Part shown: positions 7,114 through 60,956 of the stretch, one piece after another
Numbering within the stretch: the first letter of the stretch is position 1
How the letters are laid out: each line of letters opens with the position of its first letter
NCBI GenBank assembly: GCA_964350265.1
Contig: CAYGJZ010000002.1
Location: 41,007-105,006 of the forward strand
DNA from: an uncultured Gammaproteobacteria bacterium
GTDB taxonomy: Bacteria; Pseudomonadota; Gammaproteobacteria; Arenicellales; CAJQKF01
DNA length: 64,000 bases
Direction of reading: 5' to 3'
Made by a program: the position numbers and the translations under genes
Notes under the pieces: generated by a model
What the model was told of the DNA's origin: nothing
The model's input: only the letters and a program-made list of their open reading frames with translations
Databases searched by the model: none

Positions 7114-7141
7114 AGATGTTATCATCTGGTCTTTAACATCT
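7114..7141. promoter_or_regulatory. Inverted repeat AGATGTTA-N12-TAACATCT upstream of the GST gene
   Basis: The 8-bp arms are perfect. It lies in an AT-rich island 26 nt upstream of ATG 7167. It shares the TAACAT half-site with the TAACATGTTA palindromes. Confidence 0.45.
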
Positions 7142-7166
7142 TACAAGATCAACCAGGATCCTCGCC

Positions 7167-7775
7167 ATGAAACTGCACCAGCACCCGATGTCCGGCAATT
7201 GCTACAAGGTACGCCTGATGGCCTCACTGCTGGGCGTCGACGTTGCGTTGGTGCCCGTGGACTTGATGAACGGAGAGCAGAAGACTCCTGCCTTTCGGGC
7301 CTTGAATCCCCTCGGGCAAGTACCGGTTCTGGAAGATGATGGTGTACTGGTGCGCGACTCCCAGGCCATTCTCGTCTACCTCGCGCGCCGCTACGGTGGG
7401 GACGCCTGGCTGCCTGAAGACGCCGCTGGGCTCGCCGAAGTCATGCAGTGGCTGTCGTTTTCCGCCAGGGAGATGCTGGAGGGGCCGGCCCTGGCCCGGG
7501 CCCTCGTCCTGTTCAAGCGCACGGACGATCCGGAACCGGTGGCCAAGCGCGCACGACGGGCGCTCGCGGTGCTCGACGACCGTCTGCAGCACCATCCGTG
7601 GCTGGCGCTCGACCGGCCAACGGTGGCCGACGTCGCCTGTTATCCCTATGCCGCGCTGGCTCACCAGGGCGACCTGGACATCGGCGAACTCGATGGCCTG
7701 CTGGGTTGGTTCGCGCGGGTGCAGGGGTTGTCCGGTTACATTGCGCAGAAAGGCATCTACGAAGTTCCACTCTAA
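7167..7775 (+). CDS. Glutathione S-transferase
   Basis: The N-terminal thioredoxin-like half reads NPLGQVPVLEDDGVLVRDSQAILVYL. A C-terminal helical GST domain follows. The product is 202 aa. Confidence 0.9.
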   Translation: MKLHQHPMSGNCYKVRLMASLLGVDVALVPVDLMNGEQKTPAFRALNPLGQVPVLEDDGVLVRDSQAILVYLARRYGGDAWLPEDAAGLAEVMQWLSFSAREMLEGPALARALVLFKRTDDPEPVAKRARRALAVLDDRLQHHPWLALDRPTVADVACYPYAALAHQGDLDIGELDGLLGWFARVQGLSGYIAQKGIYEVPL

Positions 7776-7808
7776 TAACATCTTATATAGATCATATTGA
7801 CATGTTAT
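7776..7808. promoter_or_regulatory. TAACATCTTA plus TGACATGTTAT operator-like pair upstream of the PaaK-like operon
   Basis: It starts immediately after the GST stop codon. TAACATCTTA (7776-7785) duplicates 7134-7143. GACATGTTAT (7799-7808) is a one-mismatch variant of the TAACATGTTA palindrome. Confidence 0.45.
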
Positions 7809-7834
7809 AGAGTCGGCCCGTATCCTCGCCGCCT

Positions 7835-7856
7835 GGTGTCACTCGTCGGTGACACC
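7835..7856 (+). promoter_or_regulatory. Perfect inverted repeat GGTGTCAC-N6-GTGACACC in the 5' leader of the PaaK-like gene
   Basis: The arms are 8 bp. It ends 22 nt upstream of ATG 7879 and just before the GGGAGGA Shine-Dalgarno. It could be a leader hairpin or a second operator. Confidence 0.35.
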
Positions 7857-7878
7857 CTGACCGGGAGGAAAAATCTGG

Positions 7879-9294
7879 ATGACATCGCCGCAGGTACCGT
7901 ACTACTACGCCACGCTGGACTTCCAGGCACTGTGGCGGGACTATCCGCCGCCGCCGCGGGACGCCGATGTCGCGCGGGCATCGGCGGATGAAATCCGCGC
8001 CTTGCAGGAGCAACGTTTCGCCGAGCAGGTGGCCCGGGCCTGGACGATCCCTTTCTACCAGCGCCTGTGGGGCGAGGCAGGCATGCAGCCGGGGGATATC
8101 CGAGTACTCGACGATCTGTCGCGTTGCCCTTCGTTCACCGTCTCCGACCTGCGCGAAAGCATCGACCGGGCACCACCGTTCGGCGACTTCACCGGGGTCG
8201 ACCCGAAGAATGGCCCGCCCACGCCCTGGATCTTCCATACCAGCGGCGGAACCACCGGTTTGCCGCGTCCAATGCTGTACTCGCCAAAGGATCGCGAAGT
8301 CGTCAACATCCTGGGCGCCCGTCGCCTGCACATGGCGGGTATACGCGCGGGTGACATGGTGCAGGTGACTCACTCCCTGGGTCTGTCCAATGCCGGGATG
8401 TCCGCCGGGGAGTCTTTGTGGAAGTACTCCGGGGCAGTACCGGTCATGACCGGCAGTGGTTCATCGACGCCGTCACGGCGGCAGATCGAGCTTGCGAAGG
8501 CTTGGGGCAGCAACGCCTTGATCGGCTTCGCCGCCTACATGCGGCACCTGGCGCTGGTCTGTCGCGACGAGATGCGGATCGACCCGCGCGACCTTGGCAT
8601 CAAGTCCATATGTACACATCTCGGCACGGACGACCGTGCATCGCTGGAAGATCTCTGGAACGCGAAGGTGTACGACTCCTACGGTGCCAACGAGGCAGGC
8701 ATGATCGCCGCCGACTGCGAGGCGCGGAGCGGCATGCACGTGTTCGAGGATGCCCACTACGTGGAAGTGGTCGATCCGGTCTCGGGACAACCCGTACCCA
8801 CGGGTGCTGAAGGTACGGCGTTCATCACCAGCCTGTACAAGCATGCCGCACCGATGATCCGCTTCAACATCAACGACATTACCGCCATGGTTTCGGGAGA
8901 GTGTTCCTGTGGCAGCCGCCGGCGCAGGTTGCGCGGCATCCTCGGACGCAGCGACAACATGGTCAAGTTGCGCGGCGTCAATGTCTTTCCGGACGCCATC
9001 GGCGGCCTGATCCAGGACAACGACCGCATGACCGGCGACTACGTGTGCATCGTCGACACGGTGGCCGCAGGACGTGACGAGATGACCACCATGGTCGAGG
9101 CGTCTGGCAGCGAGGTCGACAGGGAAGCGCTGCGCGTGGATCTTGAGCAGCGGCTGCGCGAGGTCATCGGCGTGAAGATCGCGGTGGAAGTCGTGGACCG
9201 TGGCGCACTGGATCGCTACACCGGGTTGTCACAGACCTCCAAGGTCAAGCGCTTGATCGACAGGAGAAAGGACAAGCACCCGGGCACACACTAG
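7879..9294 (+). CDS. Phenylacetate-CoA ligase (PaaK)-family adenylate-forming enzyme
   Basis: The AMP-binding loop is HTSGGTTGLPRP. The overall layout is PaaK/F390-synthetase-like (LQEQRF..., YGANEAG, GRSDNMVKLRGVNVFP). Confidence 0.85.
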   Translation: MTSPQVPYYYATLDFQALWRDYPPPPRDADVARASADEIRALQEQRFAEQVARAWTIPFYQRLWGEAGMQPGDIRVLDDLSRCPSFTVSDLRESIDRAPPFGDFTGVDPKNGPPTPWIFHTSGGTTGLPRPMLYSPKDREVVNILGARRLHMAGIRAGDMVQVTHSLGLSNAGMSAGESLWKYSGAVPVMTGSGSSTPSRRQIELAKAWGSNALIGFAAYMRHLALVCRDEMRIDPRDLGIKSICTHLGTDDRASLEDLWNAKVYDSYGANEAGMIAADCEARSGMHVFEDAHYVEVVDPVSGQPVPTGAEGTAFITSLYKHAAPMIRFNINDITAMVSGECSCGSRRRRLRGILGRSDNMVKLRGVNVFPDAIGGLIQDNDRMTGDYVCIVDTVAAGRDEMTTMVEASGSEVDREALRVDLEQRLREVIGVKIAVEVVDRGALDRYTGLSQTSKVKRLIDRRKDKHPGTH

Positions 9295-9384
9295 CAGGTG
9301 AAGGTTTCCCGGTGCGCCGCAGGCCAGCGGTGTGAACAGGCTTGACATCGAACGCCGCATCGGCGGCAGCAACAGGAGAACGGT

Positions 9385-10176
9385 ATGGATCTGAAAATCC
9401 GGGACAAGGTGGCCATTGTCGGCGGCGCAAGCGGCGGCATCGGCTCGGCGATCGCCCACCAGTTGGGCAGCGAAGGTGCCCGTCTGGTGCTGTGGGCGCG
9501 CAAGGCAGAACCGCTGGAGCAGTCCGCCAGGGAGATTGCACAAGCCACCGGGGTCGAGGTGTTGACGGTGACCGGTGATATTCGCGAAGGCGAGGACCTT
9601 GAGCGGATCGTCGCGGCGACCATGGAGAAGTTCGGACAGGTGGATATCCTGGTCAACAACGACGGAGCACCGCGTCTTGGACCTCTGCTTACCTTTGACG
9701 ACGAGACCTGGGACAAGGCCATTCGCCAGATGCTGCTTTCCGTGGTGCGGTTGACGCGACTGTGCATTCCGTCGATGAAGGAGCGTGGGTGGGGTCGGGT
9801 GATCAACATCGGTGCGCTTGCGGGCAAGGCGCCCCAGGCGGGGTTTGGACTGTCCGCGGCCACCCTGGCGGGGATGATCGGCTACTGCAAGACGCTCTCG
9901 CGGGAGGTGGGGGCCGATGGCATTACCATCAACACGCTGTGTCCCGGCCGGGTGGATACCGCCCTGACCCGTCGTGCACTGAAGGCCCAGGCCGAGCACC
10001 GCAAGGCGTCGCTGGAGGACACCGTTGCCGAGGCAACCGCGCGCATCCCGGTGGGGCGGTTCGCACAGCCGGAGGAGATTGCCGCCGTGGTCGCCTTTCT
10101 TGCCTCTGAACAGGCTGCCTTCCTTACCGGTACCGCGTTGCAGGTTGACGGCGGCACGCTGGAAAGCATTGCCTGA
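9385..10176 (+). CDS. SDR-fold protein with intact dinucleotide-binding motif but degenerate catalytic tetrad
   Basis: GGASGGIG and NNDG are present. When aligned by eye to FabG-type SDRs, the Asn/Ser/Tyr/Lys positions read Met/Ala/Ser/Leu (IGALAGKAPQAGFGLSAATLAG). Confidence 0.85.
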   Translation: MDLKIRDKVAIVGGASGGIGSAIAHQLGSEGARLVLWARKAEPLEQSAREIAQATGVEVLTVTGDIREGEDLERIVAATMEKFGQVDILVNNDGAPRLGPLLTFDDETWDKAIRQMLLSVVRLTRLCIPSMKERGWGRVINIGALAGKAPQAGFGLSAATLAGMIGYCKTLSREVGADGITINTLCPGRVDTALTRRALKAQAEHRKASLEDTVAEATARIPVGRFAQPEEIAAVVAFLASEQAAFLTGTALQVDGGTLESIA

Positions 10177-10206
10177 ACCGTCGAACCCGACCACGGGAGA
10201 AATTCC

Positions 10207-11076
10207 ATGCCCATCTATGACCTCCATTCCCACTGGGGAACCCGGCGCGGCTACGCGCTGCGCTCGGAAAAAGAACTGGCGTTGCAGCGCAAGACCTGGA
10301 ACTCCGAGCCTGCCTATCACACCGAGGAGGAAATGGCTGCCTATTTTCGAGAAAGCGATGTGCGGGCCATTCTCGATTTCGGCTTCGACAAGTACCTGGA
10401 TCTCGAAGAAGCCGCCGAGTTGCACGACTACGGTATCGAGGTTCAACAAGCGTATCCGGATGTCATCATCGGCAACTGGATCCAGATCAATCCTCGCACG
10501 GGCAGCGCGGGTGTTCGAGAACTGCGACGGTGCAAGGACAAGGCCACCGGCTTCCTCGGCTTCGCGGCTTCTGGAAGTGGTGCGGGACCGGTCAGCGACG
10601 AAGTCTGGGCACCGTATTTCGAGTTCTGCGTCGAGGCGCAGATTCCGGTGCTCGTACTGGTGGGTACCACCGGCCTCGGTGCGGGTATGCCTGGCGGCAA
10701 CGGCATACTCATCGAGCACTGCCACCCGCGCTACCTCGACCAGGTCGCCGCCCGCTACCCGGACCTGACCATCGTTGCGGCGCGACCCGCCTGGCCCTGG
10801 CAGGCCGAGGCCATCGCGGTGATGCTGCACAAGCCGAATATCTGGTACGAGTTGCACGGGTGGTCGCCGAAGTATTTCACCCCGGACCTGAAGTACGAGA
10901 TCTCCCGCCGCCTGAAGAACCGCGTCATGTTCGGAGCCGATTACCCGTTGTTTACCTATGAACGGCTGCTGCGCGACTGGAAAGCGGAAGGATATGCCGA
11001 GGATGTCCTCGAGCGGGTGTTCACGCGCAATGCCGAGGCCTTCCTGGCCTCGATCCAGGGACGGGACCCGGCATAG
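10207..11076 (+). CDS. Amidohydrolase_2 (ACMSD-like) family metal-dependent hydrolase/decarboxylase
   Basis: An N-terminal HxH is present (IYDLHSHW), and the TIM-barrel amidohydrolase pattern continues to a C-terminal FGADYP. A GGGAGA Shine-Dalgarno lies upstream. Confidence 0.8.
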   Translation: MPIYDLHSHWGTRRGYALRSEKELALQRKTWNSEPAYHTEEEMAAYFRESDVRAILDFGFDKYLDLEEAAELHDYGIEVQQAYPDVIIGNWIQINPRTGSAGVRELRRCKDKATGFLGFAASGSGAGPVSDEVWAPYFEFCVEAQIPVLVLVGTTGLGAGMPGGNGILIEHCHPRYLDQVAARYPDLTIVAARPAWPWQAEAIAVMLHKPNIWYELHGWSPKYFTPDLKYEISRRLKNRVMFGADYPLFTYERLLRDWKAEGYAEDVLERVFTRNAEAFLASIQGRDPA

Positions 11077-11133: not shown

Positions 11134-12126
11134 TTACTGCACCGCGACCACGGTACGGCCACGGATTTCCCCGGCGAGAATTCGCCGTCCCGCCTCGGGC
11201 ACGTCGGGCAGCCCGATGGTGTTCACCATGGAGTCCAGTCTAGCCATCGGCAGGTCGCTTGCCACGCGCTGCCAGGCCCGCGCCCGGGCGGCCGTCGGCT
11301 GCATCACCGAGTCGATGCCCAGCAGGTTGACGCCGCGCAGCAGGAAGGGAATGACCGTGGTGTTCAAGGAGCTGCCCCCGGCCAGTCCCACCGCCGCCAC
11401 TGAACCACCGTAGCGAATCTGGGTCAGGACGTGGGACAGCATGGTGCCGCCCACCGCATCCACGCAGCCAGCCCAGCGTTCCCGGTCCAGCGGCTTTGCA
11501 GGTGGTGAGGACAAGGCCTCGCGTTCAATGATCGTCGCGGCGCCGAGCGACCTCAGGTAGTCCGCGGTTTCCGCTCTGCCGGTGACCGCGGCAACTTGGT
11601 ACCCCAGGCTGGCGAGGATGGCGACCGCCACCGAGCCGACGCCGCCGGCCGCACCGGTAACCAGCACCTCGCCCTGGTCGGGCTCCAGACCGTGGTCTTC
11701 CAGCGCCATCACTGCCAGCATGGCAGTGAAGCCGGCCGTGCCTACCGCCATGGCCTGGCGAGCGGACAGGCCGGATGGTCGTGGCAACAGCCAGTCGCCC
11801 TTGACCCTGGCTCGCTCCGCGTAACCACCCCACCAGGTTTCTCCCACTCGCCAACCGGTCAGTAGCACCGGATCTCCAGCCTGGAACCGCTGGTCTTCCG
11901 AAACCACCACGGTGCCGGCCAGGTCAATGCCGGCAATGTGCGGATAGTTGCGTACCAGGCCACCCTTGCCGGACAAGCACAGCCCGTCCTTGTAGTTGAC
12001 GGTGGAGTATTCCACCGCAACCGTGACGCCTCCCTCCTGGGGCAGGGCGTGCTCGTTGATGGTCTCGACTGCGCTGGTGACCTTTCCCTGGTCGTTCTTC
12101 CGAGTGACGACGGCGTTGAATTCCAC
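11134..12126 (-). CDS. acuI: Acrylyl-CoA reductase / YhdH-family NADPH quinone oxidoreductase
   Basis: The product is colinear with E. coli YhdH as I remember it. Shared blocks include VNYKDGL, PHIAGIDLAGTV, LLTGWRVGETWWGGYAERARVKGDWL, GTAGFTAML, VTGAAGGVGS and GEIRGRTVV. Confidence 0.9.
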   Translation of the reverse strand: MEFNAVVTRKNDQGKVTSAVETINEHALPQEGGVTVAVEYSTVNYKDGLCLSGKGGLVRNYPHIAGIDLAGTVVVSEDQRFQAGDPVLLTGWRVGETWWGGYAERARVKGDWLLPRPSGLSARQAMAVGTAGFTAMLAVMALEDHGLEPDQGEVLVTGAAGGVGSVAVAILASLGYQVAAVTGRAETADYLRSLGAATIIEREALSSPPAKPLDRERWAGCVDAVGGTMLSHVLTQIRYGGSVAAVGLAGGSSLNTTVIPFLLRGVNLLGIDSVMQPTAARARAWQRVASDLPMARLDSMVNTIGLPDVPEAGRRILAGEIRGRTVVAVQ

Positions 12127-12259
12127 GTTGACCTCTTGCTGTGCAAATGATGGTTGATGGTGTGCCGCACCCAGTGACAGGCCATCCCAGGAGGCACGAC
12201 GTGCGGGATGCCTCGTTGAAACAGGTCACGAGGTGCTAAAGTGTCCAGAAGGTATAAAT

Positions 12260-12269
12260 TAACATGTTA
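12260..12269. promoter_or_regulatory. Exact palindrome TAACATGTTA (copy 1), upstream of acuI
   Basis: Read directly from the sequence. It lies 134 nt upstream of the acuI start on the minus strand. Confidence 0.55.
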
Positions 12270-12540
12270 GAGCATGGAGGATCGATACCCGCGATGCGGT
12301 TCGATGCCCTGGCTGCGCACTTGGCCCCACGTCCTGTCGACATTCTGCTAAGGCTTTCGGAGCCTGCGTATGGGATGCAAACCGCTGAAAAATCGTCGGT
12401 TATTGCGATATCCACGATGTAGAGCCGGCAATCCGCCGATTTTCCTGCCACAGGTCGTACGCACACGGCCAGTGGTCGATCCTGAAGACCAGGATACGTC
12501 GGGCTTGCAGATTTTCCTTGAAGTTCTAGAATAGCTTTCA

Positions 12541-12550
12541 TAACATGTTA
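12541..12550. promoter_or_regulatory. Exact palindrome TAACATGTTA (copy 2), upstream of the cupin-ABC operon
   Basis: Read directly from the sequence. It lies 43 nt upstream of ATG 12593. Confidence 0.55.
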
Positions 12551-12592
12551 ACTACATTGACCATCATCGAAACACAACGGGAAACCGCCACC

Positions 12593-13075
12593 ATGAGCAA
12601 GCCAACTGAACAGCAGACCTGGGGCGACAGGCTGGACGACGCGATCCAGGCGGCGTCGAGCGCGCGTCGGGAAGCACGCAAGGTGATTCGCTCGGAAGAG
12701 TTGCAATGGGAAGAGGACAAGATGGCCAAGAGCGCCTTGCTGGTGAGCGAGATGACCGGATTCTCGCTGCGCTCTATCCACGCATTTCTCGCCGAGATGC
12801 CACCTGCGGCATCCACCGGGAAACATCGTCACACCAGCGAAGCGCTGATGTACGCGTTGTCTGGCAGCGCCTACACCATCATCGACGGAGAGCGGATCGA
12901 CTGGAAGGCGGGAGATGCCATTGCCATCCCGGTGATGGCCTGGCATCAGCACTTCAATGCCAGCGACACCGAGCCGTTTCGCTACCTTGCCGCGAGCAAC
13001 TACCCGATGACGGTAAATCTCGGCGTGGAACTGATCGAGCACGCTGAATCGCGCAGCGATCTCGACGACAACTGA
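12593..13075 (+). CDS. Monocupin, gentisate-1,2-dioxygenase-like metal site
   Basis: The cupin motifs are GKHRHTSEALMYALSG and IPVMAWHQHFN. I chose ATG 12593 as the start. The ORF-track start at 12545 lies inside the palindrome. Confidence 0.7.
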   Translation: MSKPTEQQTWGDRLDDAIQAASSARREARKVIRSEELQWEEDKMAKSALLVSEMTGFSLRSIHAFLAEMPPAASTGKHRHTSEALMYALSGSAYTIIDGERIDWKAGDAIAIPVMAWHQHFNASDTEPFRYLAASNYPMTVNLGVELIEHAESRSDLDDN

Positions 13076-13094
13076 GCATGCGGGGAAGGCAGCG

Positions 13095-14192
13095 TTGATC
13101 ACCCTGACAAACATCAAGAAAACGTACCGTGGTACCCAGGCTCCCGCCGTGGACGGACTTTCGCTGACGGTAGAGGAGGGGCAACTGGTCACGTTGCTGG
13201 GTTCCAGTGGTTGCGGCAAGACCACCACCCTGCGTTGTCTTGCCGGGCTGGAAGAGCCTGATGCCGGAGAGATCGCCATCGACGGGGAGGTGGTGTACTC
13301 CAGCGAACGCGGCATCAACCTGCCTGCGAGCCGCAGACGACTTGGCATGGTGTTTCAAAGCTATGCCATCTGGCCGCACATGACGGTGTTCGAAAACGTC
13401 GCCTTTCCCTTGCGCTGCGAGAACAAGTCTCAAGACGAAATTGCAGAAGCCGTCGACTGGGCCCTGTCCCTGGTCAACCTGGAAGAATATGCACAACGTC
13501 GTGCGCCATTGCTTTCCGGTGGGCAGCAACAGCGGGTTGCCCTGGCCAGGGCGATCGTCAACCGTCCCCGGGTGTTGCTGCTTGACGAACCCTTGAGCAA
13601 CCTCGATGCCAAGCTGCGTGACCAGATGCGACTGGAACTGCGCCAGTTGCTCAAGGGCCTGAAGATTACCGCCGTGTACGTGACCCACGACCAGGACGAG
13701 GCCTACTCCCTGTCCGATGTGACTGCACTGATGAACGGTGGGCGCATTGTCGAGTACGGGCTGCCCATCGACATCTACAACCAGCCAAGAACAACTTTCG
13801 GCGCCGAGTTCCTCGGATTGTTCAGCCGGTTCCCGGGCACGGTTGTCGGAATGTCGTCGGAGAACCAGGCAAGGGTGCAATCCCCGCTCGGGGAAATCCT
13901 GTGCCACAGCCATGTCTCGCAGGCGGCGGGAACCGACGTCACCGTCTACCTGCGTCCGGAGGAAGTGGAAGTACTGGTGTCGTCCAGCGAACCCGGATTT
14001 GACGTGGACGTCACGGAAATCATTCGCCTTGGCAGCATCGTCGAATGGTGGGGGCAAGTCGGCGGAATCCAGGTGCGCGGAAGGATGTTGGCGGGGGCAC
14101 CAGGTGCCGCTCGCCTGCACGAGAGCGGAGTGGGGGGGCGATTGCGGGCGCACGTGTTGTCCGCACGATGCCTTCCCACGGATGCGGAATAA
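13095..14192 (+). CDS. ABC transporter ATP-binding protein (PotA/FbpC-like, with C-terminal regulatory domain)
   Basis: Walker A is GSSGCGKTT, the signature is LSGGQQQRVALA and Walker B is LLLDEP. The start is TTG, preceded by GGGGAAGG. Confidence 0.9.
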   Translation: MITLTNIKKTYRGTQAPAVDGLSLTVEEGQLVTLLGSSGCGKTTTLRCLAGLEEPDAGEIAIDGEVVYSSERGINLPASRRRLGMVFQSYAIWPHMTVFENVAFPLRCENKSQDEIAEAVDWALSLVNLEEYAQRRAPLLSGGQQQRVALARAIVNRPRVLLLDEPLSNLDAKLRDQMRLELRQLLKGLKITAVYVTHDQDEAYSLSDVTALMNGGRIVEYGLPIDIYNQPRTTFGAEFLGLFSRFPGTVVGMSSENQARVQSPLGEILCHSHVSQAAGTDVTVYLRPEEVEVLVSSSEPGFDVDVTEIIRLGSIVEWWGQVGGIQVRGRMLAGAPGAARLHESGVGGRLRAHVLSARCLPTDAE

Positions 14193-14215
14193 GCCAAACC
14201 AACGAGGAGCATGAC

Positions 14216-15322: not shown

Positions 15323-15350
15323 CGGCAGGAACACTGGGCCAAGATCAGCA

Positions 15351-17081
15351 ATGAATACCGCACAACAGCCCTCGAGCAGTCGCGTACGTTGGTGGACGCG
15401 CATTGATCCCTGGCGTGACGGCACGACACTGTTGTGCGGTTTCCTGCTCATCTACCTGGTCGGTGTGCCGCTGGTTCTGCTGTTCTACGGCTCGGCGGCC
15501 ACCGGCGTCCCTGGTGAGGCCGGTGCGCTGAGTCTTTCCCGCTACTACGAGGTCCTGTCCGACCCGGATACCTACCGCTTGCTTGGTCGGTCGGTGGTCT
15601 ACGCCCTGGGTGTAGCCGCGGTGGCCCTGCCGCTGGGTGGCGTCACGGCCTGGTTGGTGCAGCGAACCAACCTGCCCGGCAAGGGAATTTTCGTGTTTCT
15701 TGCGCTGTGCCCGGCCTTCATGCCGCCGGTGTTGATCGCGCTGGGCTGGATACTGCTGCTGGACGGCAATATTGGACTCGTCAGTCGTTTCCTGCAGTCG
15801 ATGCTGGGTGCCGACGAACCCTTGCTGCAGGTGCACTCCCTGTACGGAATGATCTGGATCGGCGGCGTGCTCGACATGCCGCTGGCCTTTCTGTGGCTGT
15901 GGCCCGCCTTCGCGGCCATGGATCCCGCGCTCGAGGAAGCGGGAGCCATGGCCGGCGGGAGGCCCTGGCGAGTGCTGCGCAAGGTCACGCTTCCCCTGAT
16001 CTGGCCGGCCATTGCCGGTGCATTCCTGATCAGCTTTGTCCTTGCCATAGAAGACGTCACCGTACCGATCCTGGTCGGACTGCCGGGTCAGGTGCATGTC
16101 TTTGCCACGGACATCTACCTGGCCCATGCCCAGGAAACCCCGGATACCGCGCGTGCCAGTGCGCAGGGTGTCATCCTCTTGCTGGTCACCATCGGCTTCG
16201 TCTGGCTGTACCGCCACCTGACCCGCAAGTCTGAACGGTATGCCATCGTGCGTGGGCGTGGCTACCGACCGTCCGAAGTGTCTCTGGGTGTTTGGCGGTT
16301 GCCGGTGTTTGCGTTGATGTGCGCGGTCTTTGGTTTTGTCGTGTTGCTGCCACTGGTGATCCTGTTGTGGACTTCGCTCAGTCCCTATCTACAGGCGCCG
16401 ACGCTGGATGGCCTGACAAACCTCTCGCTGTACTGGTACCGCAGCCTGATTGATGACCCGATGGCCATTCGTGGATTGGTCAACAGCGCCCTGTCCGGGT
16501 TCGGCGCGGCGGTGGTGGTGATGGGCCTGTCGGTAATCGTTGGTTGGGCGGTCATTCGCTCGAAGAATCGCATCTGGGGCTTTCTCGACGTGCTCGCCTT
16601 CCTGCCGGTGGCGATTCCTGGACTGGTGGTCGGCCTTGGCCTGATCTGGCTGTACGTGCCGGTGGCGCTGCCGATCTACGGCACCCTGGTCATCATCTGG
16701 CTTGCCTACATCACCAAGTTCATTCCCTACGGTGCGCGACTGATCTACGCCGGCCTGCGCCAGTTGCACCCGGAACTGGAGGAGGCTGCGCATGTATCCG
16801 GGGCGAGCTGGGGCAAGACCTTGCGCAGAATCATCCTGCCGTTGCTCGCGCCGACGCTGGCAGCGGGCATCCTGTACTCCACCATGCGGGCGTTTCGGGA
16901 GCTGCCGGCATCGCTGTTGCTGGTGTCCTACGGCAACGAGACCTATTCGGTCATCGCCTATGAAATGTGGTCGGCCGGTGATCCCGGGCGTACCGCGGCC
17001 TACGGCATGGTGGTGATCGTAGTGATGACGACGATCGTCGCAATTACCTGGAGGACTGTGCGCAAATGGGCATTCCGATGA
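15351..17081 (+). CDS. ABC transporter permease, duplicated (two-module) FbpB/ThiP-type
   Basis: The 576-aa product is hydrophobic and contains two binding-protein-dependent transport modules. Confidence 0.85.
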   Translation: MNTAQQPSSSRVRWWTRIDPWRDGTTLLCGFLLIYLVGVPLVLLFYGSAATGVPGEAGALSLSRYYEVLSDPDTYRLLGRSVVYALGVAAVALPLGGVTAWLVQRTNLPGKGIFVFLALCPAFMPPVLIALGWILLLDGNIGLVSRFLQSMLGADEPLLQVHSLYGMIWIGGVLDMPLAFLWLWPAFAAMDPALEEAGAMAGGRPWRVLRKVTLPLIWPAIAGAFLISFVLAIEDVTVPILVGLPGQVHVFATDIYLAHAQETPDTARASAQGVILLLVTIGFVWLYRHLTRKSERYAIVRGRGYRPSEVSLGVWRLPVFALMCAVFGFVVLLPLVILLWTSLSPYLQAPTLDGLTNLSLYWYRSLIDDPMAIRGLVNSALSGFGAAVVVMGLSVIVGWAVIRSKNRIWGFLDVLAFLPVAIPGLVVGLGLIWLYVPVALPIYGTLVIIWLAYITKFIPYGARLIYAGLRQLHPELEEAAHVSGASWGKTLRRIILPLLAPTLAAGILYSTMRAFRELPASLLLVSYGNETYSVIAYEMWSAGDPGRTAAYGMVVIVVMTTIVAITWRTVRKWAFR

Positions 17082-17614
17082 GTAAAGACACCTTCAGCGA
17101 CGCCGACGCACTGCCGGATTCGCTGCCGGCGCCGGACCAGCGAGAACTGCGCAATGCCTTTGGCCGATTCGCCACCGGTGTGTGCGTGGTGACCACGCGC
17201 GACGCGGACGGTGCACCGGTTGGGGTGACCGTGAATTCGTTCAGCGCGCTGTCGCTGTCGCCGCCCCTGGTGTTGTGGTGCCTCGCCGAAACGGCGCTGT
17301 CTCGTGCCGCCTTCGAGCAGGCTGAGCGCTTCGCGGTAAACGTGCTCAGTGCCCACCAGCACGAGGTGTCGAAGAACTTCGCAACCTCGCGTGCGGACAA
17401 GTTCCGCAACCAGGTCTGGACGCCGGGCCTGGGCGATGTGCCGTTGCTGGGGGGAACCCTGGCACGGTTCGAGTGTCGTCGTTCTTCGCTGTTGGCAAAG
17501 GGGGATCACCTGTTGTTCGTTGGCCGGGTGGAGCGGTTTTCCTACGACGATGGCAATCCCTTGTTGTTCAGCGCCGGGCAGTACGGCGAGATGGCACGGG
17601 CATTGAGCGAATGA
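17066..17614 (+). CDS. Flavin reductase (HpaC/RutF-like)
   Basis: Characteristic blocks are FRNAFGRFATGVCVVTT, VNSFSALSLSPPLVLWC and GDHLLFVGRV. The gene overlaps the permease stop. A GGAGGA lies 9 nt upstream. Confidence 0.85.
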   Translation: MGIPMSKDTFSDADALPDSLPAPDQRELRNAFGRFATGVCVVTTRDADGAPVGVTVNSFSALSLSPPLVLWCLAETALSRAAFEQAERFAVNVLSAHQHEVSKNFATSRADKFRNQVWTPGLGDVPLLGGTLARFECRRSSLLAKGDHLLFVGRVERFSYDDGNPLLFSAGQYGEMARALSE

Positions 17615-17637: not shown

Positions 17638-18384
17638 TCAGGTCGTCTCGAGGTGCAGGTTGCCCCCGTCCCTGGCGTCCCAGTGGAACGGGGTCGAAGA
17701 GGGCGCGCGGCACACGTGCAGACTGTACAGGTGACCGGTGGCCGGTTGGCGGTCGACTGTGCGGCCCACGGGCCGGATCTCGATCCGCGACTCGCCGAAG
17801 TCGAAGGTATGCCCGTCGTCTTTTTCCAACGTGCCGGGTTCCTGCTGCAACAAGGCCCGGTACAGCGCCGCCGTCTCTTCGATGTCGCTGCTCACCAGCC
17901 GAATGGCGGCTATTCCGTTGACCCCGTTGGGATGGCGGCAGGCTGGCGGTCGACGATGGGTGATCGGGGTGAGGTCTTCGATCAGGAAGGGCACCGTGCC
18001 CGGGGCGATGTGCGGGGGCACCGACAAGCGCCAGCGAATGGTGACACCGTCGGGCCTCGTTCGCGACATTTCCCGCGGCGGGCTCATGACGATACCGGCG
18101 GCGTCGTACCGCGCGAGGTCAGTGTCCAGGTCGTCGGAGATCGCGCAGAAGTCGGACAGTCCACCACCGCCGGCAAGGAGTGGCGCCCAACGATGCGACG
18201 GGTTCGGCTCGGCGAAGGCAAGCAACTCCAGGTAGCTGCCGTCCTCCAGTCCCACCAGGGCATTGTGGGTGCCCGTGGAATGGCGTCCTCCCGGGGTGAC
18301 GACGAAGCCCAGCCGGGCAAAACCTCGAATCGCTTGGTCAAGATTCGGGACCACGACAACGACATGATCAAGTCCAGTCAGCAT
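17638..18384 (-). CDS. VOC/glyoxalase-like domain protein
   Basis: The N-terminus reads LDHVVVVVPNLDQAIRGFARLGF...GTHNALVGLEDGSYLELLAF. The start is ATG 18384, preceded by AGGTGGA. Confidence 0.7.
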   Translation of the reverse strand: MLTGLDHVVVVVPNLDQAIRGFARLGFVVTPGGRHSTGTHNALVGLEDGSYLELLAFAEPNPSHRWAPLLAGGGGLSDFCAISDDLDTDLARYDAAGIVMSPPREMSRTRPDGVTIRWRLSVPPHIAPGTVPFLIEDLTPITHRRPPACRHPNGVNGIAAIRLVSSDIEETAALYRALLQQEPGTLEKDDGHTFDFGESRIEIRPVGRTVDRQPATGHLYSLHVCRAPSSTPFHWDARDGGNLHLETT

Positions 18385-18450: not shown

Positions 18451-18492
18451 TGACATTTAAGAAAATGTCATCCAATTATAATTAACATGTTA
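18451..18492. promoter_or_regulatory. TGACATTT-N4-AAATGTCA inverted repeat plus exact TAACATGTTA (copy 3) in the VOC/LLM divergent region
   Basis: The inverted repeat is at 18451-18470. The exact 10-mer is at 18483-18492, directly abutting the AGGAG Shine-Dalgarno of the LLM gene (ATG 18507). Confidence 0.55.
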
Positions 18493-18506: not shown

Positions 18507-19532
18507 ATGGATTTCGGCGCCTTTGTCCTTTGCCAGAGACTGCACAGGGAAATCTCCTCAGCGGATGTGTTTGCCAATTCCCTGGAGCTGGTAAAACTGG
18601 CCGAGGAAGTTGGCTTCTCCAATGCCTGGTTCCCCGAACATCACCTTCTCCACTACGTTTCCTGCCCTTCGCCGTTGATGATGGCCGTGAAGGCGGCTTC
18701 CGTGACGCAGTCGATCCGCGTCGGCACCGCGATCGCGGTTGCACCGTACTACCATCCCATCCGGTTGGCCGGGGAGATCGGAATGGCCGACCATCTCACC
18801 GATGGTCGGTTGGAGATCGCGACCGGTCGGGGCGCGGTGAACTATGAGTTCTCCCGGTTCGGCATCGACGTGCCGACGGCCTCTGCGCGCTTCCAGGAGT
18901 CCGCCAAGGCGGTGCAGGATCTGCTGACCAACGAAGACTGTGTCAGCGACGGACCAACCTGGCCGTTTCCTGCGTCTACCGCGGTTCCACGGCCATTGCA
19001 GGATCCTTTTCCGCCGATGTGGGTAGCCGCGCGTTCGCCCGAAACCATCGACTGGTCGGTAAAGAACGGGTTCAACGTCATGACCAACACGCCCTGGGGC
19101 GAGCCGTTGGCGGCGATTGAGGCGGTGGGGCAGCAGTTTCAGGATGCCGTTTCCCGGGCCAATCCGACGGTGCGGCCGAAGTTCGGCGTTTCGCGCGTTG
19201 CATTCGTCGCCGAAAGCGACGCGGAGGCGCGTGCCGAGATGGACGCGGTGCAGGTCAGCAACCGGGTGTTTACCCGCCTGTTTCGAGACATGGCGGAGAT
19301 TCGTGGCGGGTTTGCCGAACCGGAGCCGGTGGAAGGCGAACCGACACCCGACGACCTGTTCAACGTGCTCATTGCCGGGTCGCCGAAGACCTGCATCGAC
19401 AAGTTGAAGATTCTCGAACGCGCAGGCGTCGATCACTTCATCATGTTCGTGTTCGGACGCGATCACGAATCGGCGATGCGATCGGTACGCATGTTTGGCG
19501 AGCAGGTCATTCCCGCGTTCCGCAAGGCATAG
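18507..19532 (+). CDS. Luciferase-like (LLM class) flavin-dependent monooxygenase
   Basis: The N-terminal block is AEEVGFSNAWFPEHHLL and the TIM-barrel LLM layout follows. A flavin reductase is encoded nearby. Confidence 0.85.
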   Translation: MDFGAFVLCQRLHREISSADVFANSLELVKLAEEVGFSNAWFPEHHLLHYVSCPSPLMMAVKAASVTQSIRVGTAIAVAPYYHPIRLAGEIGMADHLTDGRLEIATGRGAVNYEFSRFGIDVPTASARFQESAKAVQDLLTNEDCVSDGPTWPFPASTAVPRPLQDPFPPMWVAARSPETIDWSVKNGFNVMTNTPWGEPLAAIEAVGQQFQDAVSRANPTVRPKFGVSRVAFVAESDAEARAEMDAVQVSNRVFTRLFRDMAEIRGGFAEPEPVEGEPTPDDLFNVLIAGSPKTCIDKLKILERAGVDHFIMFVFGRDHESAMRSVRMFGEQVIPAFRKA

Positions 19533-19542
19533 GAGAGTAGCG

Positions 19543-20787
19543 ATGTCCATCACGGTGCTTGAGAATGCCTTTCTGCTGGACTGCACGGGGGCGGAGCCCC
19601 GGGACGGTGCCGCGGTCGTGATCGAGGACTCGATCATTCGCGAAGTCGTCGAGCCTGGTGGCAGGTTGTCCGCTTTTCCTGATGCCCGGAGAATCGACTT
19701 GCACGGGCTGACATTGATGCCAGGGCTGATCGACGCCCACGTGCATCTTTGCGCGGTGGAATCGAACCCGGCGGAGCAGCATCGACAAATCCCACCGAGC
19801 CTGGTGGCGGCAAAGGCGGTTCGACGGCTGGAGCAAACCCTGTTGCAGGGGTTCACCACGGTACGTGACGCGGGCGGTGCCGACTACGGCTTTCGCGAGA
19901 TGGTGGAACAAGGCGTGGTCGAGGGGCCACGGGTGCGGGTCAGCGGCAATCACATCTACCAGACTGGCGGGCACGGCGACAAGCGACGGCCGGCGGAACT
20001 GTGCTGCGCGATCCAGGCCACCGATGTCGGCATCGTCGGCGCGGTAGCCGATGGCTGCGACGAGGTTCGCAAGGTGGTTCGCGAGCAACTGCGCCGCCAT
20101 GCAGACCAGGTCAAGCTGATGTGTTCCGGTGGCGCGATGTCTCCTGGCGACGAACTGGAAACGTCACAGTTCACCCGAGAGGAAATTGCCGTCGCGGTCG
20201 CCGAGGCCGCCGCCGCCAACCGCTACGTCATGGCGCATGCCTACTCCGGTGCAGCGGTGCGCAACGCAGTGGCAGCAGGCGTACGTTCCATCGAGCACGG
20301 CAACCTGATGGACGAAGAAGCGGCAAGACTGATTCGCGATGCTGGTGCCTACCTGGTGCCGACGCTGGTGACCTACGAGGCCATCGCGCGCAACAGTGAG
20401 CGCATGGGCATCAGTGCCTTCATGCTCGAAAAGGTCAACGCGGCACGGGAGAAGGGGTTGCAGAGCCTGGAATACGCCTATCGTGCCGGCGTGAAGATCG
20501 GCTCCGGGTCAGACTTGCTCGGCGGCATGTTCCGATACCAGGCCCATGAACTCGAGCTGCAGGGCGAGGTGCAGCCGGCAATGGACGTCTTGCTCTCCGC
20601 GACCCGTGTCAACGCCGAAATCATGCGACTGGACGATCAGATCGGCACGGTGGAAGCCGGAAAGATTGCCGATCTCCTGGTGGTGCGCGGTAACCCGTTG
20701 AAGGATCTTTGTGTATTCCAGGATACCGACAACCTGCGCGTGATCATGAAGGAAGGCCGGGAAGTCAAGAACCTGTTGCCGGGGTAG
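19543..20787 (+). CDS. Amidohydrolase_1 family metal-dependent hydrolase
   Basis: Characteristic blocks are MPGLIDAHVHL, KLMCSGG, AHAYSG, SIEHG and GSGSDL. The C-terminal block reads GTVEAGKIADLLVV. Confidence 0.85.
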   Translation: MSITVLENAFLLDCTGAEPRDGAAVVIEDSIIREVVEPGGRLSAFPDARRIDLHGLTLMPGLIDAHVHLCAVESNPAEQHRQIPPSLVAAKAVRRLEQTLLQGFTTVRDAGGADYGFREMVEQGVVEGPRVRVSGNHIYQTGGHGDKRRPAELCCAIQATDVGIVGAVADGCDEVRKVVREQLRRHADQVKLMCSGGAMSPGDELETSQFTREEIAVAVAEAAAANRYVMAHAYSGAAVRNAVAAGVRSIEHGNLMDEEAARLIRDAGAYLVPTLVTYEAIARNSERMGISAFMLEKVNAAREKGLQSLEYAYRAGVKIGSGSDLLGGMFRYQAHELELQGEVQPAMDVLLSATRVNAEIMRLDDQIGTVEAGKIADLLVVRGNPLKDLCVFQDTDNLRVIMKEGREVKNLLPG

Positions 20788-20791
20788 GGGG

Positions 20792-21529
20792 CTAGAACCA
20801 GATCTCCTCCGCCGGCTTGTGTGCAAGGTTGATGTCAAGCAGCTCGGAACTGGAAAGCAACGCCTGGGAAACCATTTCGCGGGCGGCGCGAATCTGCTCG
20901 GCGGCAACGCCTTCGGCGACTTCTCCGTCCTGGCGCGCCAGCGCATCCACCAGCAGTCGGTGTTCGTGCTGCATTTGCGGCGTGCGGTCGCGTAGCGAAA
21001 GGCCGAAGTGGAACAGGCGCTCCATGTCCTCGAGCAGCTGACCGATCATGCGCGCGAGACGTTCGTTGCCGGAAGCCCGGGCAATGGTCACGTGGAACTC
21101 GTAGTTGGCTCGAAGGAAGACCGCGGTTCCCTGTTTGTCGTCGACGTTGTACTCGGTGCGGCAGATCTCGTCGAGGCGTCGCAGTCGCTCGGCATCGACG
21201 CCGTTCTGTGCCGCCAGGCGGGCCGCGGGCGGCTCCAGGAACAGGCGCAGCTGAAAGATGTTGTTGACGTCGCGGATGGTGATCGGCGCGATGACGTAAC
21301 CACGACGATGTACCGGTCGCACCAGGCCTTGCTGCGACAGTCGGGTCAGGGCGGCGCGAATCGGTGCCTTGCCAAGCTTGAGGCGTTCCGAGAGCTGTGA
21401 CTCGGTGACCTCGGAGCCCGGTTTCAGCAAGCAGTGGATGATTTCCTGCTTGATCTGGTCATAGGCGAGGTCGCCAAGCAGGGCGGGGGACTTTCGCTTG
21501 CTGGTCGTGGTTTTCTTCTGCGCCGCCAT
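20792..21529 (-). CDS. GntR-family regulator, FadR/FCD subfamily
   Basis: The N-terminal wHTH reads SQLSERLKLGKAPIRAALTRLSQQGLV. The C-terminal FCD-type helical domain reads FHVTIARASGNERL.... Confidence 0.9.
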   Translation of the reverse strand: MAAQKKTTTSKRKSPALLGDLAYDQIKQEIIHCLLKPGSEVTESQLSERLKLGKAPIRAALTRLSQQGLVRPVHRRGYVIAPITIRDVNNIFQLRLFLEPPAARLAAQNGVDAERLRRLDEICRTEYNVDDKQGTAVFLRANYEFHVTIARASGNERLARMIGQLLEDMERLFHFGLSLRDRTPQMQHEHRLLVDALARQDGEVAEGVAAEQIRAAREMVSQALLSSSELLDINLAHKPAEEIWF

Positions 21530-21560
21530 GGCCGGGGGACGAGCTCCTGTATATGTTTTC

Positions 21561-21594
21561 TGTCATGTCACTATACACGTTCATGTACATGTTT
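21561..21594. promoter_or_regulatory. ACATG-core sites (TGTCATGTCA; CATGTACATGTTT) just upstream of the gntR start
   Basis: Read directly from the sequence. The sites lie 32-65 nt upstream of the gntR ATG on the minus strand. This placement is consistent with autoregulation. Confidence 0.4.
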
Positions 21595-21737
21595 GGGATG
21601 CTTTGTTGATGCGGTCGTAATGGACGATTATCCGGGAAGTTACCGGCCGCTTGCCTGGATTGAGGTCAGGACTGCGAACTGCAAGATGACCGGGAATTCG
21701 TGTGGCCTGCGCAGGAATCGAAGGTTCGCATGGTCAA

Positions 21738-21770
21738 TAACATGTTATATATCATCCTTAAAAATGTTAA
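21738..21770. promoter_or_regulatory. Exact TAACATGTTA (copy 4) plus AATGTTAA half-site upstream of the cupin-rhodanese gene
   Basis: The 10-mer is at 21738-21747 and the extra half-site at 21763-21770. They lie about 150 nt upstream of ATG 21897. Confidence 0.55.
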
Positions 21771-60952: not shown

Positions 60953-60956
60953 CAGA

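What the first reader, a model, noticed from the sequence alone, without database searches (positions are those of the whole stretch)
7114..21770. Exact palindrome TAACATGTTA sits in every promoter region of a 17-kb block: candidate undescribed multi-operon regulon
TAACATGTTA occurs as an exact copy at 12260, 12541, 18483 and 21738, always in intergenic DNA. The motif has 8 A/T positions. Assuming about 0.17 per A or T and 0.33 per G or C, my arithmetic gives an expectation well below 0.01 copies in 64 kb, so four copies is not chance. Variants with the same ACATG core lie at four more places. These are 7114-7141 (AGATGTTA-N12-TAACATCT), 7776-7808, 18451-18470 (TGACATTT-N4-AAATGTCA) and 21561-21594. 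Together they cover every inferred transcription-unit start from the GST gene to the cupin-rhodanese gene. The only regulator encoded inside the block is the FCD-type GntR at 20792-21529. Its own upstream region carries variant sites. The motif is not the TGGT/ACCA type seen for the other FadR-like GntR in this window, so assigning it to this regulator is inference.
Basis: partly seen in the sequence, partly recalled or inferred. Interest (0 to 1): 0.7.

Follow-up and report, generated by a model that had tools for sequence, protein, structure and literature searches.

The report
Operator sites of a local GntR repressor
A 10-base palindrome repeated in front of nearly every operon of a 17-kb gene island is very probably the DNA-binding site of the GntR-type regulator encoded in that island, an ordinary kind of gene switch whose recognition sequence has not been described before.

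Summary
TAACATGTTA occurs exactly four times (12260, 12541, 18483, 21738). None occurred in 100 shuffles. All nine hits with at most 1 mismatch to TRACATGTYA lie in intergenic DNA between 7.1 and 21.8 kb. None lies elsewhere in the window or in 9 kb further right.

Sites tend to come in pairs 22 bp apart and overlap the only sigma-70-like promoter matches in the block.

- Orthologues at 89, 79 and 68% identity keep TAACATGTTA-type sites beside the regulator, although the neighbouring gene differs.
- In 80 species-level genomes with 49-59% homologues, an exact TGACATGTCA lies within 300 bp upstream of the regulator gene in 71. About 0.26 copies are expected in 815 kb.
- Aquamicrobium soli has the same cupin-ABC and amidohydrolase/glyoxalase operons, with the same sites.

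This is therefore a local, probably autoregulated repressor regulon. It resembles Atu1419 of Agrobacterium, a GntR/FCD protein that binds a 10-bp palindrome at several promoters.

The recognition sequence (AC-N2-GT core) and the recognition helix (GKAPIR) are not canonical for the family. The effector and the pathway substrate are unknown. Binding itself is untested. I rate it a new member of a known kind, of moderate interest.

The parts
7112..7143 (.). Paired sites TGAGATGTTA (7112) and TAACATCTTA (7134), 22 bp apart, 24 bp upstream of the GST start codon
   Evidence: Each site has 1 mismatch to TRACATGTYA.
7776..7807 (.). Paired sites TAACATCTTA (7776) and TGACATGTTA (7798), 22 bp apart, upstream of the PaaK-like ligase gene. 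The second site overlaps a -35-like TTGACA.
   Evidence: The promoter scan gives TTGACA-18-TATCCT at 7797.
12260..12269 (.). Exact TAACATGTTA, 134 bp upstream of the acrylyl-CoA-reductase-like gene (minus strand), preceded by TATAAA
12541..12550 (.). Exact TAACATGTTA, 43 bp before the ATG of the cupin-ABC-flavin reductase operon and 281 bp from the 12260 site, in one 466-bp spacer
   Evidence: Aquamicrobium has two sites 200 bp apart upstream of the orthologous cupin gene.
18451..18492 (.). Inverted repeat TGACATTT-N4-AAATGTCA (18451-18470) plus exact TAACATGTTA (18483). They lie between the divergent glyoxalase-like and luciferase-like monooxygenase (LLM) genes. The palindrome lies in the spacer of a minus-strand TTGTCA-16-TATAAT promoter and abuts the LLM ribosome-binding site.
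   Evidence: The whole stretch of about 70 bp is conserved in L011. The equivalent paired sites are in L016 and L088.
21561..21570 (.). TGTCATGTCA (1 mismatch), 32 bp upstream of the GntR start codon; candidate autoregulatory site
   Evidence: The ATGTCA half and the adjacent 21 bp are conserved in L011.
21738..21769 (.). Exact TAACATGTTA (21738) plus AAAAATGTTA (21760), 22 bp apart, upstream of the cupin-rhodanese gene
   Evidence: Both are conserved in L011 while the surrounding intergenic DNA is not.
20792..21529 (-). FCD-type GntR regulator, 245 aa, the proposed binder. Its recognition helix is LGKAPIRAAL and its wing is RRGY.
   Evidence: Pfam GntR and FCD domains. Clade alignment A3. A canonical paralogue at 44306-45019 has GVGRNTVRRVL.
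7167..11076 (+). Proposed target genes: GST (7167-7775), PaaK-like CoA ligase (7879-9294), SDR (9385-10176) and Amidohydro_2 (10207-11076)
   Evidence: Pfam and NCBIfam
11134..12126 (-). Proposed target: acrylyl-CoA reductase family (YhdH/AcuI-like) gene
   Evidence: TIGR02823 scores 446.9 bits against a cut-off of 297
12593..17614 (+). Proposed target operon: 160-aa cupin, ABC ATPase, solute-binding protein, fused permease and flavin reductase
   Evidence: Pfam. Orthologous operon in L080 and L088.
17638..18384 (-). Proposed target: Glyoxalase_3-family gene, divergent from the LLM gene
   Evidence: Pfam. The same divergent pair is in L011, L016 and L088.
18507..20787 (+). Proposed target operon: luciferase-like monooxygenase and Amidohydro_1 amidohydrolase
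   Evidence: Pfam and NCBIfam
21897..24098 (+). Proposed target: cupin (CDO-like) fused to three rhodanese domains, divergent from the GntR gene
   Evidence: Pfam rhodanese x3. The N-terminal domain resembles the CDO_I-like cupin encoded next to GntR homologues (BLASTP E 3e-07) and the cupin fused to them (E 1e-04).

Best explanation
The TRACATGTYA palindromes (mostly TAACATGTTA here) are operators of the FCD-type GntR regulator encoded at 20792-21529.

Proposed mechanism:
- A dimer binds each 10-bp palindrome. Pairs 22 bp apart, and the two copies 281 bp apart in the 12127-12592 spacer, would allow cooperative or looped binding by a higher oligomer.
- The sites overlap the -35 box, the spacer or the start region of the promoters. 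Bound protein would therefore block RNA polymerase and repress seven promoter regions.
- The repressed genes are GST, the CoA ligase (with the SDR and Amidohydro_2 genes), the AcuI-like reductase, the cupin-ABC-flavin reductase operon, the glyoxalase-like gene, the monooxygenase-amidohydrolase operon, the cupin-rhodanese gene, and the regulator's own gene.
- A small-molecule effector binding the FCD domain would release the protein.

Basis of each step:
- Shown: the sites, their confinement to the block, their conservation, and their co-occurrence with this regulator clade across many species.
- Inferred: physical binding, repression rather than activation, oligomeric state, and the effector.

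The pathway substrate is unknown. The gene content hints at an organosulfur or acrylate-related compound: two multi-rhodanese proteins, a CDO-like cupin, GST and an acrylyl-CoA reductase.
For: 1. Significance and confinement. There are 4 exact copies against 0 in 100 shuffles. All 9 hits with at most 1 mismatch to TRACATGTYA are intergenic within 7.1-21.8 kb. None is in the 9 kb beyond the right end.

2. Phylogenetic footprints. In L011 (GntR 89% identical) the palindromes upstream of the LLM and rhodanese genes are islands of identity in otherwise diverged spacers.

3. The motif follows the regulator, not the neighbouring gene:
- L016 (68%) has TAACATGTTA between the GntR gene and an unrelated ABC binding-protein gene.
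- L014 (79%) has TAACATGTTT and TAACATTTTA between the GntR gene and a flavin reductase gene.

4. Wider clade. In 80 species-representative genomes with 49-59% homologues, an exact TGACATGTCA lies within 300 bp upstream of the homologue in 71. There are 74 copies in 815,551 bp against 0.26 expected. All 71 flanks differ, and there is no flank conservation apart from promoter hexamers.

5. Shared targets:
- L088 (Aquamicrobium soli) and L080 carry orthologous cupin-ABC and amidohydrolase/glyoxalase units. Their sites are in the corresponding spacers, including a 22-bp pair.
- L107 (50%) has TGACATATCA upstream of a GntR-LLM-CDO-like-glyoxalase operon.

6. Position. The only four sigma-70-like matches in 7-22 kb all overlap the sites.

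7. Recognition helix. The clade-specific helix GKAP[IV]R differs from the canonical G(V)xRxT(V)R of the window's other FCD GntR. This fits a non-canonical operator.

8. Precedent. Atu1419, an FCD GntR, binds identical 10-bp palindromes at three promoters of one catabolic island, with two copies 190 bp apart forming a loop (PMC7797058).
Against: - No binding or expression data exist for any member of the clade.
- The core reads AC-N2-GT. The family's usual core is GT-Nx-AC, so the binding geometry is unproven.
- In the betaproteobacterial homologues half of the palindrome coincides with a -35 TTGACA, so part of that conservation is promoter constraint.
- The 80 genomes are mostly related Burkholderiales MAGs, so the 71 cases are not 71 independent events.
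- Nine of the 80 homologues lack the exact palindrome near the gene. They are mainly alphaproteobacterial loci where the regulator follows another gene. Two of them, L080 and L088, carry a one-mismatch TAACATGTTT there instead.
- The locus with a GntR-cupin fusion (L106) has sites only downstream of the regulator gene.
- The source genome could not be scanned as a whole.
Confidence: 0.8

Rival explanations
1. The palindromes are operators of a different transcription factor encoded elsewhere, for example a global sulfur-limitation or stress regulator, or the HxlR-type protein at 3378-4124. On this reading the GntR gene is merely one member of that regulon.
For: - The gene content looks like sulfur scavenging or detoxification: rhodaneses, GST, an LLM with a flavin reductase, and TauD/SsuA-like genes at 60-63 kb with weak half-sites at 61022-61073.
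- The motif is not of the canonical GntR GT-Nx-AC type.
Against: - The motif tracks the GntR clade across very different gene contexts. These include MFS/TauE exporters, acyl-CoA ligase, and a TonB receptor with Trp-dioxygenase.
- In most loci the single copy present lies directly at the regulator's own promoter.
- No site lies near the HxlR gene.
Confidence: 0.1
2. The sequence is a promoter element rather than an operator. TTGACA/TTAACA would act as -35 hexamers and TAACAT as a -10 hexamer. The 22-23-bp pairing would then simply reflect -35/-10 spacing, perhaps for a dedicated sigma factor.
For: - The promoter scan reads TTAACA-17-TAACAT at 21770-21742 and TTGACA at 7797.
- In the betaproteobacterial loci the palindrome includes the -35 TTGACA.
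Against: - The five bases after the -35 hexamer (TGTCA) are invariant in 71 loci although the rest of the spacer is not conserved. Promoter function does not explain this.
- In the window the palindrome takes different positions relative to promoter hexamers. It overlaps a -35 at 7798, lies inside a spacer at 18483 on the minus strand, and follows a TATAAT on the plus strand.
- Perfect dyad symmetry over 10 bp is a feature of dimeric binding sites, not of sigma-70 hexamers.
Confidence: 0.06
3. The copies are remnants of a repeated or mobile element (REP or MITE type), or sites for a generic nucleoid protein or a restriction-modification system that recognises an ACATGT-containing sequence.
For: - The block has lower GC3 than its flanks (0.73-0.81 against 0.87-0.91), which suggests acquired DNA.
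- One pair of sites shares a longer 34-nt stretch at 71% identity, 7133 and 7797.
Against: - No extended repeat surrounds the other sites, and there is no Rfam match.
- There are no copies outside the block in about 59 kb of the same genome.
- Copies sit at orthologous promoter positions in distant genomes, with unique flanks.
Confidence: 0.03

Closest known systems
Atu1419 of Agrobacterium fabrum (GntR superfamily, FCD/VanR subgroup; PDB 6z74 and related entries)
   Same: - Domain architecture is the same. The PDB sequence match to the window protein has E 1.2e-14.
- The operator is an identical 10-bp palindrome repeated at several promoters of one catabolic island.
- It overlaps -10 or -35 elements.
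- Two copies lie in one divergent spacer: 190 bp apart there, 281 bp here (PMC7797058).
   Different: - The operator sequence differs: ATGTATACAT (GT-N2-AC core) against TAACATGTTA (AC-N2-GT core).
- The two proteins are distant homologues, not orthologues.
- Tetramer formation, looping and the effector are demonstrated for Atu1419 and untested here.
- The close 22-bp tandem pairs seen here are not reported for Atu1419.
FadR/PdhR/LldR-type FCD GntR repressors with TGGT-Nx-ACCA operators
   Same: Winged-helix GntR domain plus FCD domain, and a local repressor logic with compact palindromic operators. This rests on established knowledge of the family.
   Different: - The recognition helix here is GKAPIR. 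The canonical form is G(V)xRxT(V)R, as seen in the window's other FCD GntR at 44306-45019.
- No TGGT/ACCA is present.
- NCBIfam scores for the named equivalogs (PhnR, NanR, CsiR, GlcC, LldR) are all far below their cut-offs.
E. coli GntR (LacI family) operator ATGTTA-N4-TAACAT
   Same: It uses the same hexamer half-sites, ATGTTA and TAACAT. This is recalled from my own knowledge and was not checked here.
   Different: - The protein family is unrelated (LacI type).
- The half-sites have the opposite order and spacing.
- No LacI-type regulator is encoded in the block.
- The resemblance is probably coincidental.

Membership tests
GntR family, FCD (FadR/VanR-like) subfamily | N-terminal GntR-type winged helix-turn-helix domain | tested here: met
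   PF00392 matches residues 22-80 at E 6.7e-12 and 45.3 bits, above the cut-off of 27
GntR family, FCD (FadR/VanR-like) subfamily | C-terminal all-helical FCD effector domain | tested here: met
   PF07729 matches residues 91-211 at E 3.4e-23 and 82.8 bits, above the cut-off of 24.3. PDB sequence matches are all FCD-type GntR proteins.
GntR family, FCD (FadR/VanR-like) subfamily | Operator with the family's usual GT-Nx-AC palindromic core | tested here: not met
   The conserved palindrome is TRACATGTYA, in which AC precedes GT. This feature is typical of the family rather than strictly defining. It bears on binding mode, not on protein homology.
GntR family, FCD (FadR/VanR-like) subfamily | Conserved metal and effector ligands of the FCD domain (histidines) | tested here: inconclusive
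   H146 is invariant across 25 clade members. H146 and H190 are invariant in the 4-protein alignment. I made no structural model, so the assignment of these residues to the metal site is inference.
Atu1419-like tetrameric, looping FCD repressors | Identical 10-bp palindromes at several promoters, with two copies in one spacer | tested here: met
   Four exact copies at four promoter regions. Sites 12260 and 12541 share one 466-bp spacer. The comparison is with PMC7797058.
Atu1419-like tetrameric, looping FCD repressors | Tetrameric quaternary structure and DNA looping | not testable with these tools
   This needs SEC-MALS, crystallography or electron microscopy of the purified protein
Named FCD regulators (PhnR, NanR, CsiR, GlcC, LldR) | Score above the curated NCBIfam equivalog cut-off | tested here: not met
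   The best hit is phnR_burk at 100.1 bits against a cut-off of 271.5. All others score lower.
REP/MITE-type intergenic repeat | Extended conserved flanks and dispersal over many unrelated intergenic regions | tested here: not met
   No extended repeat family surrounds the sites. No strong site lies outside the block in the window or in 9 kb beyond it.

The most novel reading that the evidence does not exclude
A widespread and so far uncharacterised clade of FCD-type GntR regulators reads a palindrome whose core is permuted relative to the family rule. The clade signature is a GKAP[IV]R recognition helix. The palindrome is TRACATGTYA, with AC-N2-GT in place of GT-Nx-AC. This would imply a different docking of the winged helix on DNA. 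The clade would control a conserved, undescribed pathway built around a luciferase-like monooxygenase, a Glyoxalase_3 protein, a CDO-like cupin and an amidohydrolase, possibly for an organosulfur compound.
Probability: 0.3. Interest if true: 0.5.

Novelty: new member of a known kind. Interest (0 to 1): 0.35.

Why it matters
- It gives a concrete, testable operator for a clade of GntR/FCD regulators found in at least 80 species-level genomes, mostly uncultured Burkholderiales and Alphaproteobacteria. No binding site or function for the clade appears in the literature I could search.
- It ties about 15 genes of unknown pathway into one regulon. That helps anyone trying to assign the substrate of the monooxygenase / glyoxalase-like / CDO-like cupin / amidohydrolase set.
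- The permuted core and the unusual recognition helix make it a useful case for how GntR proteins change DNA specificity.
- Mechanistically it is a conventional local repressor system.

Tried and rejected
- RNA element: Rfam found nothing in 7-22 kb at E up to 1.
- Repeat family around the sites: the repeat search found only one weak 34-nt pair, 7133/7797.
- HxlR-type regulator at 3378-4124 as the binder: no site lies near its gene, and it does not recur in the related loci.
- The 160-aa cupin (12593-13075) as an XRE-cupin regulator: no HTH domain was found.
- A known global-regulator box (FNR/CRP, Fur, PhoB, NsrR, LexA): compared from memory only, and none fits a TRACATGTYA dyad.
- Whole-genome distribution in the source organism: not possible. 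The species is not among the genome representatives (best homologue 59%). The left end of the window could not be extended because no exact protein is on record. Only 9 kb to the right was added.
- Literature search for the motif strings, alone and with 'GntR', returned only unrelated papers. A search for a GntR regulator of 3-mercaptopropionate dioxygenase returned nothing relevant.
- Substrate assignment from NCBIfam: only the AcuI/YhdH family hit passes its cut-off. The LLM, amidohydrolase, cupin and ligase hits are all below cut-off. I therefore name no pathway.


Full report
**1. The observation**

TAACATGTTA occurs exactly four times in the 64-kb window, at 12260, 12541, 18483 and 21738. 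It did not occur in any of 100 dinucleotide-preserving shuffles. Allowing one mismatch adds 7134, 7776 and 7798, giving 7 hits against 0.14 expected.

The hexamer TAACAT/ATGTTA occurs 14 times in the window. Thirteen of those lie in the block's intergenic DNA.

Scoring against the degenerate dyad TRACATGTYA gives nine hits with at most 1 mismatch: 7112, 7134, 7776, 7798, 12260, 12541, 18483, 21561 and 21738. All are intergenic within 7.1-21.8 kb, and none lies elsewhere in the window. There is also none in the 9 kb beyond the right end, recovered from an overlapping public contig.

**2. Gene map of the block**

I used GC3-filtered ORFs, Pfam, NCBIfam and gene calls on identical public contigs.

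| Coordinates | Strand | Product |
|---|---|---|
| 5404-7083 | + | Multi-rhodanese protein |
| 7167-7775 | + | GST |
| 7879-9294 | + | PaaK-like CoA ligase |
| 9385-10176 | + | SDR |
| 10207-11076 | + | Amidohydro_2 |
| 11134-12126 | - | YhdH/AcuI-family acrylyl-CoA reductase (the only NCBIfam hit above its cut-off) |
| 12127-12592 | . | 466-bp gene-free spacer |
| 12593-17614 | + | 160-aa cupin, ABC ATPase, binding protein, fused permease, flavin reductase |
| 17638-18384 | - | Glyoxalase_3 protein |
| 18507-20787 | + | Luciferase-like monooxygenase (LLM) and Amidohydro_1 amidohydrolase |
| 20792-21529 | - | GntR/FCD regulator |
| 21897-24098 | + | Cupin fused to three rhodanese domains |

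The block's genes have GC3 of 0.73-0.81. Most flanking genes have 0.87-0.91, which suggests acquired DNA.

Every promoter-bearing gap carries at least one strong site, with one exception. The 90-bp gap before the SDR gene has only a TGACAT half-site.

**3. Anatomy of the sites**

Sites are frequently paired 22 bp start-to-start: 7112/7134, 7776/7798, 18461/18483 and 21738/21760. The same spacing recurs in related loci:
- L011: 6060/6082 and 2735/2757
- L016: 6493/6515
- L088: 8040/8062
- A subgroup of betaproteobacterial loci: AGACATGCCA-N12-TGACATGTCA

A consensus promoter scan of 7-22 kb found only four sigma-70-like matches, and all four overlap the sites:
- TTGACA-18-TATCCT at 7797. The palindrome overlaps the -35 hexamer.
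- TTGTCA-16-TATAAT on the minus strand at 18502-18475. The palindrome lies in the spacer.
- GTGACA-18-AATTAT at 18450.
- TTAACA-17-TAACAT at 21770-21742.

At the LLM gene the palindrome lies between a TATAAT and the GGAG ribosome-binding site. These positions are those expected of a repressor that occludes RNA polymerase.

No Rfam family matches the region. No extended repeat surrounds the sites.

**4. Which protein binds: close orthologues**

The GntR protein has close orthologues in metagenomic contigs.

- L011 (89% identity) is syntenic. Exact TAACATGTTA copies upstream of the LLM and rhodanese genes stand out as conserved islands in diverged spacers. The 18451-18470 inverted repeat and a 21-bp stretch next to the GntR start are also conserved.
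- L016 (68%) has an unrelated ABC binding-protein gene as the divergent neighbour. An exact TAACATGTTA still lies in that spacer, and a degenerate 22-bp pair lies between the LLM and glyoxalase genes.
- L014 (79%) has a flavin reductase gene as neighbour. TAACATGTTT and TAACATTTTA lie in the spacer.

The motif therefore follows the regulator gene rather than any particular neighbour.

**5. Which protein binds: the wider clade**

I scanned species-representative genomes with an alignment of the clade. The peptide signature used was [LF]GKAP[IV]R[AMS]AL. The scan returned 80 loci with homologues at 49-59% identity. Most are Burkholderiales MAGs and some are Alphaproteobacteria.

An exact TGACATGTCA lies within 300 bp upstream of the homologue in 71 of the 80 loci. 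This is the same dyad with G/C in place of A/T at positions 2 and 9. In all there are 74 copies in 815,551 bp, against 0.26 expected from base composition. All 71 flanks are different.

Aligned on the site, the upstream flank shows no conservation. The palindrome is followed by a variable 12-13-bp spacer and a TAnnAT -10 box. The first half of the site therefore coincides with a -35 TTGACA. The second half (TGTCA) is invariant for no promoter-related reason. This is the expected signature of an autoregulatory operator.

The hybrid forms in the window suggest that R/Y at positions 2 and 9 is tolerated: TGACATGTTA at 7798, TGTCATGTCA at 21561, and TGACAT...ATGTCA at 18451-18470.

**6. Shared targets**

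tblastn of the block's proteins against all fetched loci shows that L088 (Aquamicrobium soli KCTC 52165, a cultured strain) and L080 (a Mesorhizobium MAG) carry orthologues. These are the cupin-ABC operon (cupin 75-76% identical) and the amidohydrolase/glyoxalase divergent pair, flanking a 50-51% GntR homologue.

Their sites lie in the corresponding spacers:
- TGACATGTCA and TAAAATGTCA, 200 bp apart, upstream of the cupin gene
- TAACATGTTT upstream of the GntR gene
- A 22-bp pair, TGACATTTTA and TGACATTTTC, between the amidohydrolase and glyoxalase genes

L107 (50%) has TGACATATCA 35 bp upstream of a GntR-LLM-CDO-like cupin-Glyoxalase_3-LLM operon.

Other homologues are followed by a CDO_I-like cupin gene or are fused to a cupin domain (alignment). 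Both cupins weakly resemble the N-terminal domain of the window's rhodanese protein (E 3e-07 and 1e-04).

The recurring core is therefore the regulator plus an LLM, a Glyoxalase_3 protein, a CDO-like cupin and an amidohydrolase.

**7. Mechanism and comparison with known systems**

The protein is an FCD-type GntR by Pfam. Its PDB relatives are all FCD GntR proteins. It reaches no curated equivalog cut-off.

The closest functional precedent is Atu1419 of Agrobacterium fabrum. That FCD/VanR-type tetramer binds identical 10-bp palindromes (ATGTATACAT) at three promoters of one catabolic island. Two of its palindromes lie 190 bp apart in a divergent spacer and are bridged by a loop (PMC7797058). 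The window shows the same layout: identical 10-bp palindromes at several promoters, with two copies 281 bp apart in one spacer.

The differences are these:
- The core here is AC-N2-GT rather than GT-Nx-AC.
- The recognition helix is LGKAPIRAAL. The canonical form is GVGRNTVRRVL, as found in the window's other FCD GntR at 44306-45019.
- Close 22-bp tandem pairs are common here.

I therefore file the protein as a member of the GntR/FCD family, because its domain criteria are met. I describe it as working like Atu1419, without claiming orthology or a tetramer.

**8. Rival explanations**

- A different transcription factor. This is unlikely because the motif tracks the GntR clade through unrelated gene contexts and usually sits at the regulator's own promoter.
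- A pure promoter element. This is contradicted by the invariant non-promoter half of the dyad and by the varied positions relative to the promoter hexamers.
- A REP/MITE element or a modification site. This is contradicted by the lack of flank conservation and by the confinement to this gene set.

**9. What remains open**

- Physical binding, the sign of regulation, the oligomeric state, the effector and the substrate are all untested.
- The 71 genomes are phylogenetically related, so the count overstates independence. The unique flanks still argue for selection on the decamer.
- I could not scan the whole source genome.

**10. Verdict**

This is a new member of a known kind: a local GntR/FCD repressor with its regulon. 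Its operator has not been described before and is non-canonical. Interest is moderate (0.35).

Noticed in passing
window 3400-26700 and 60000-64000: Genes in these stretches have GC3 of about 0.73-0.83. Most genes in the rest of the window have 0.87-0.91. The G+C profile also dips to 0.59-0.65 there. This suggests the regulon block, and the TauD/SsuA-like cluster, were acquired horizontally.
   Followed up: partly
window 61022-61073: The spacer between a TauD-family dioxygenase gene (60059-60952, minus strand) and an NMT1/SsuA-like binding-protein gene holds three weak half-site-bearing sequences: TGTCATGTTT, TAACATGACG and TGACATGAAT. It also holds the only TAACAT hexamer outside the block. 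These could be low-affinity sites of the same regulator, or chance.
   Followed up: partly
window 12127-12592: A 466-bp gene-free spacer is bounded by the two exact palindromes, with G+C well below the surroundings. A 101-aa ORF (12236-12541, minus strand) spans exactly from one palindrome to the other. It has no Pfam match and was not called as a gene on public contigs. There is no Rfam match.
   Followed up: partly
window 3378-4124 (minus strand): An HxlR-type winged-helix regulator fused to an SCP2 sterol-carrier-like domain lies next to a methyltransferase gene, just left of the block. This is an unusual domain combination.
   Followed up: no
P0103, P0104, P0111, P0113, P0114, P0118, P0120; L106 6001-7269: Members of the same GntR clade are fused at the C-terminus to a cupin (double-stranded beta-helix) domain of about 170 aa. 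In L106 the fusion gene is followed by a Trp-dioxygenase-family gene and a TonB-dependent receptor gene. TGACATTTTA and TGACATGCTA lie before the receptor gene.
   Followed up: partly
L020 4630-4790 and L019 9230-9300: The betaproteobacterial homologue loci contain intergenic arrays of short repeats. One spacer has TGGTAAC/TGGTAAT on one side and TTACCA/ATTACC on the other. Another has CAATCA(T/C)C(A/G)AA repeats. They look like multiple binding sites of some other factor.
   Followed up: no
L019-L070 (contexts): In many betaproteobacterial loci the -10 box of the GntR promoter ends only about 9 nt before the ATG. The regulator mRNA would then be nearly leaderless. A conserved TTTCA follows the -10 box.
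   Followed up: no
window 5404-7083 and 21897-24098: Two large multi-rhodanese proteins (559 and 733 aa) bracket the block. They are about 34% identical to each other by tblastn against the L011 orthologue. Only the second has the CDO-like cupin domain at its N-terminus.
   Followed up: no
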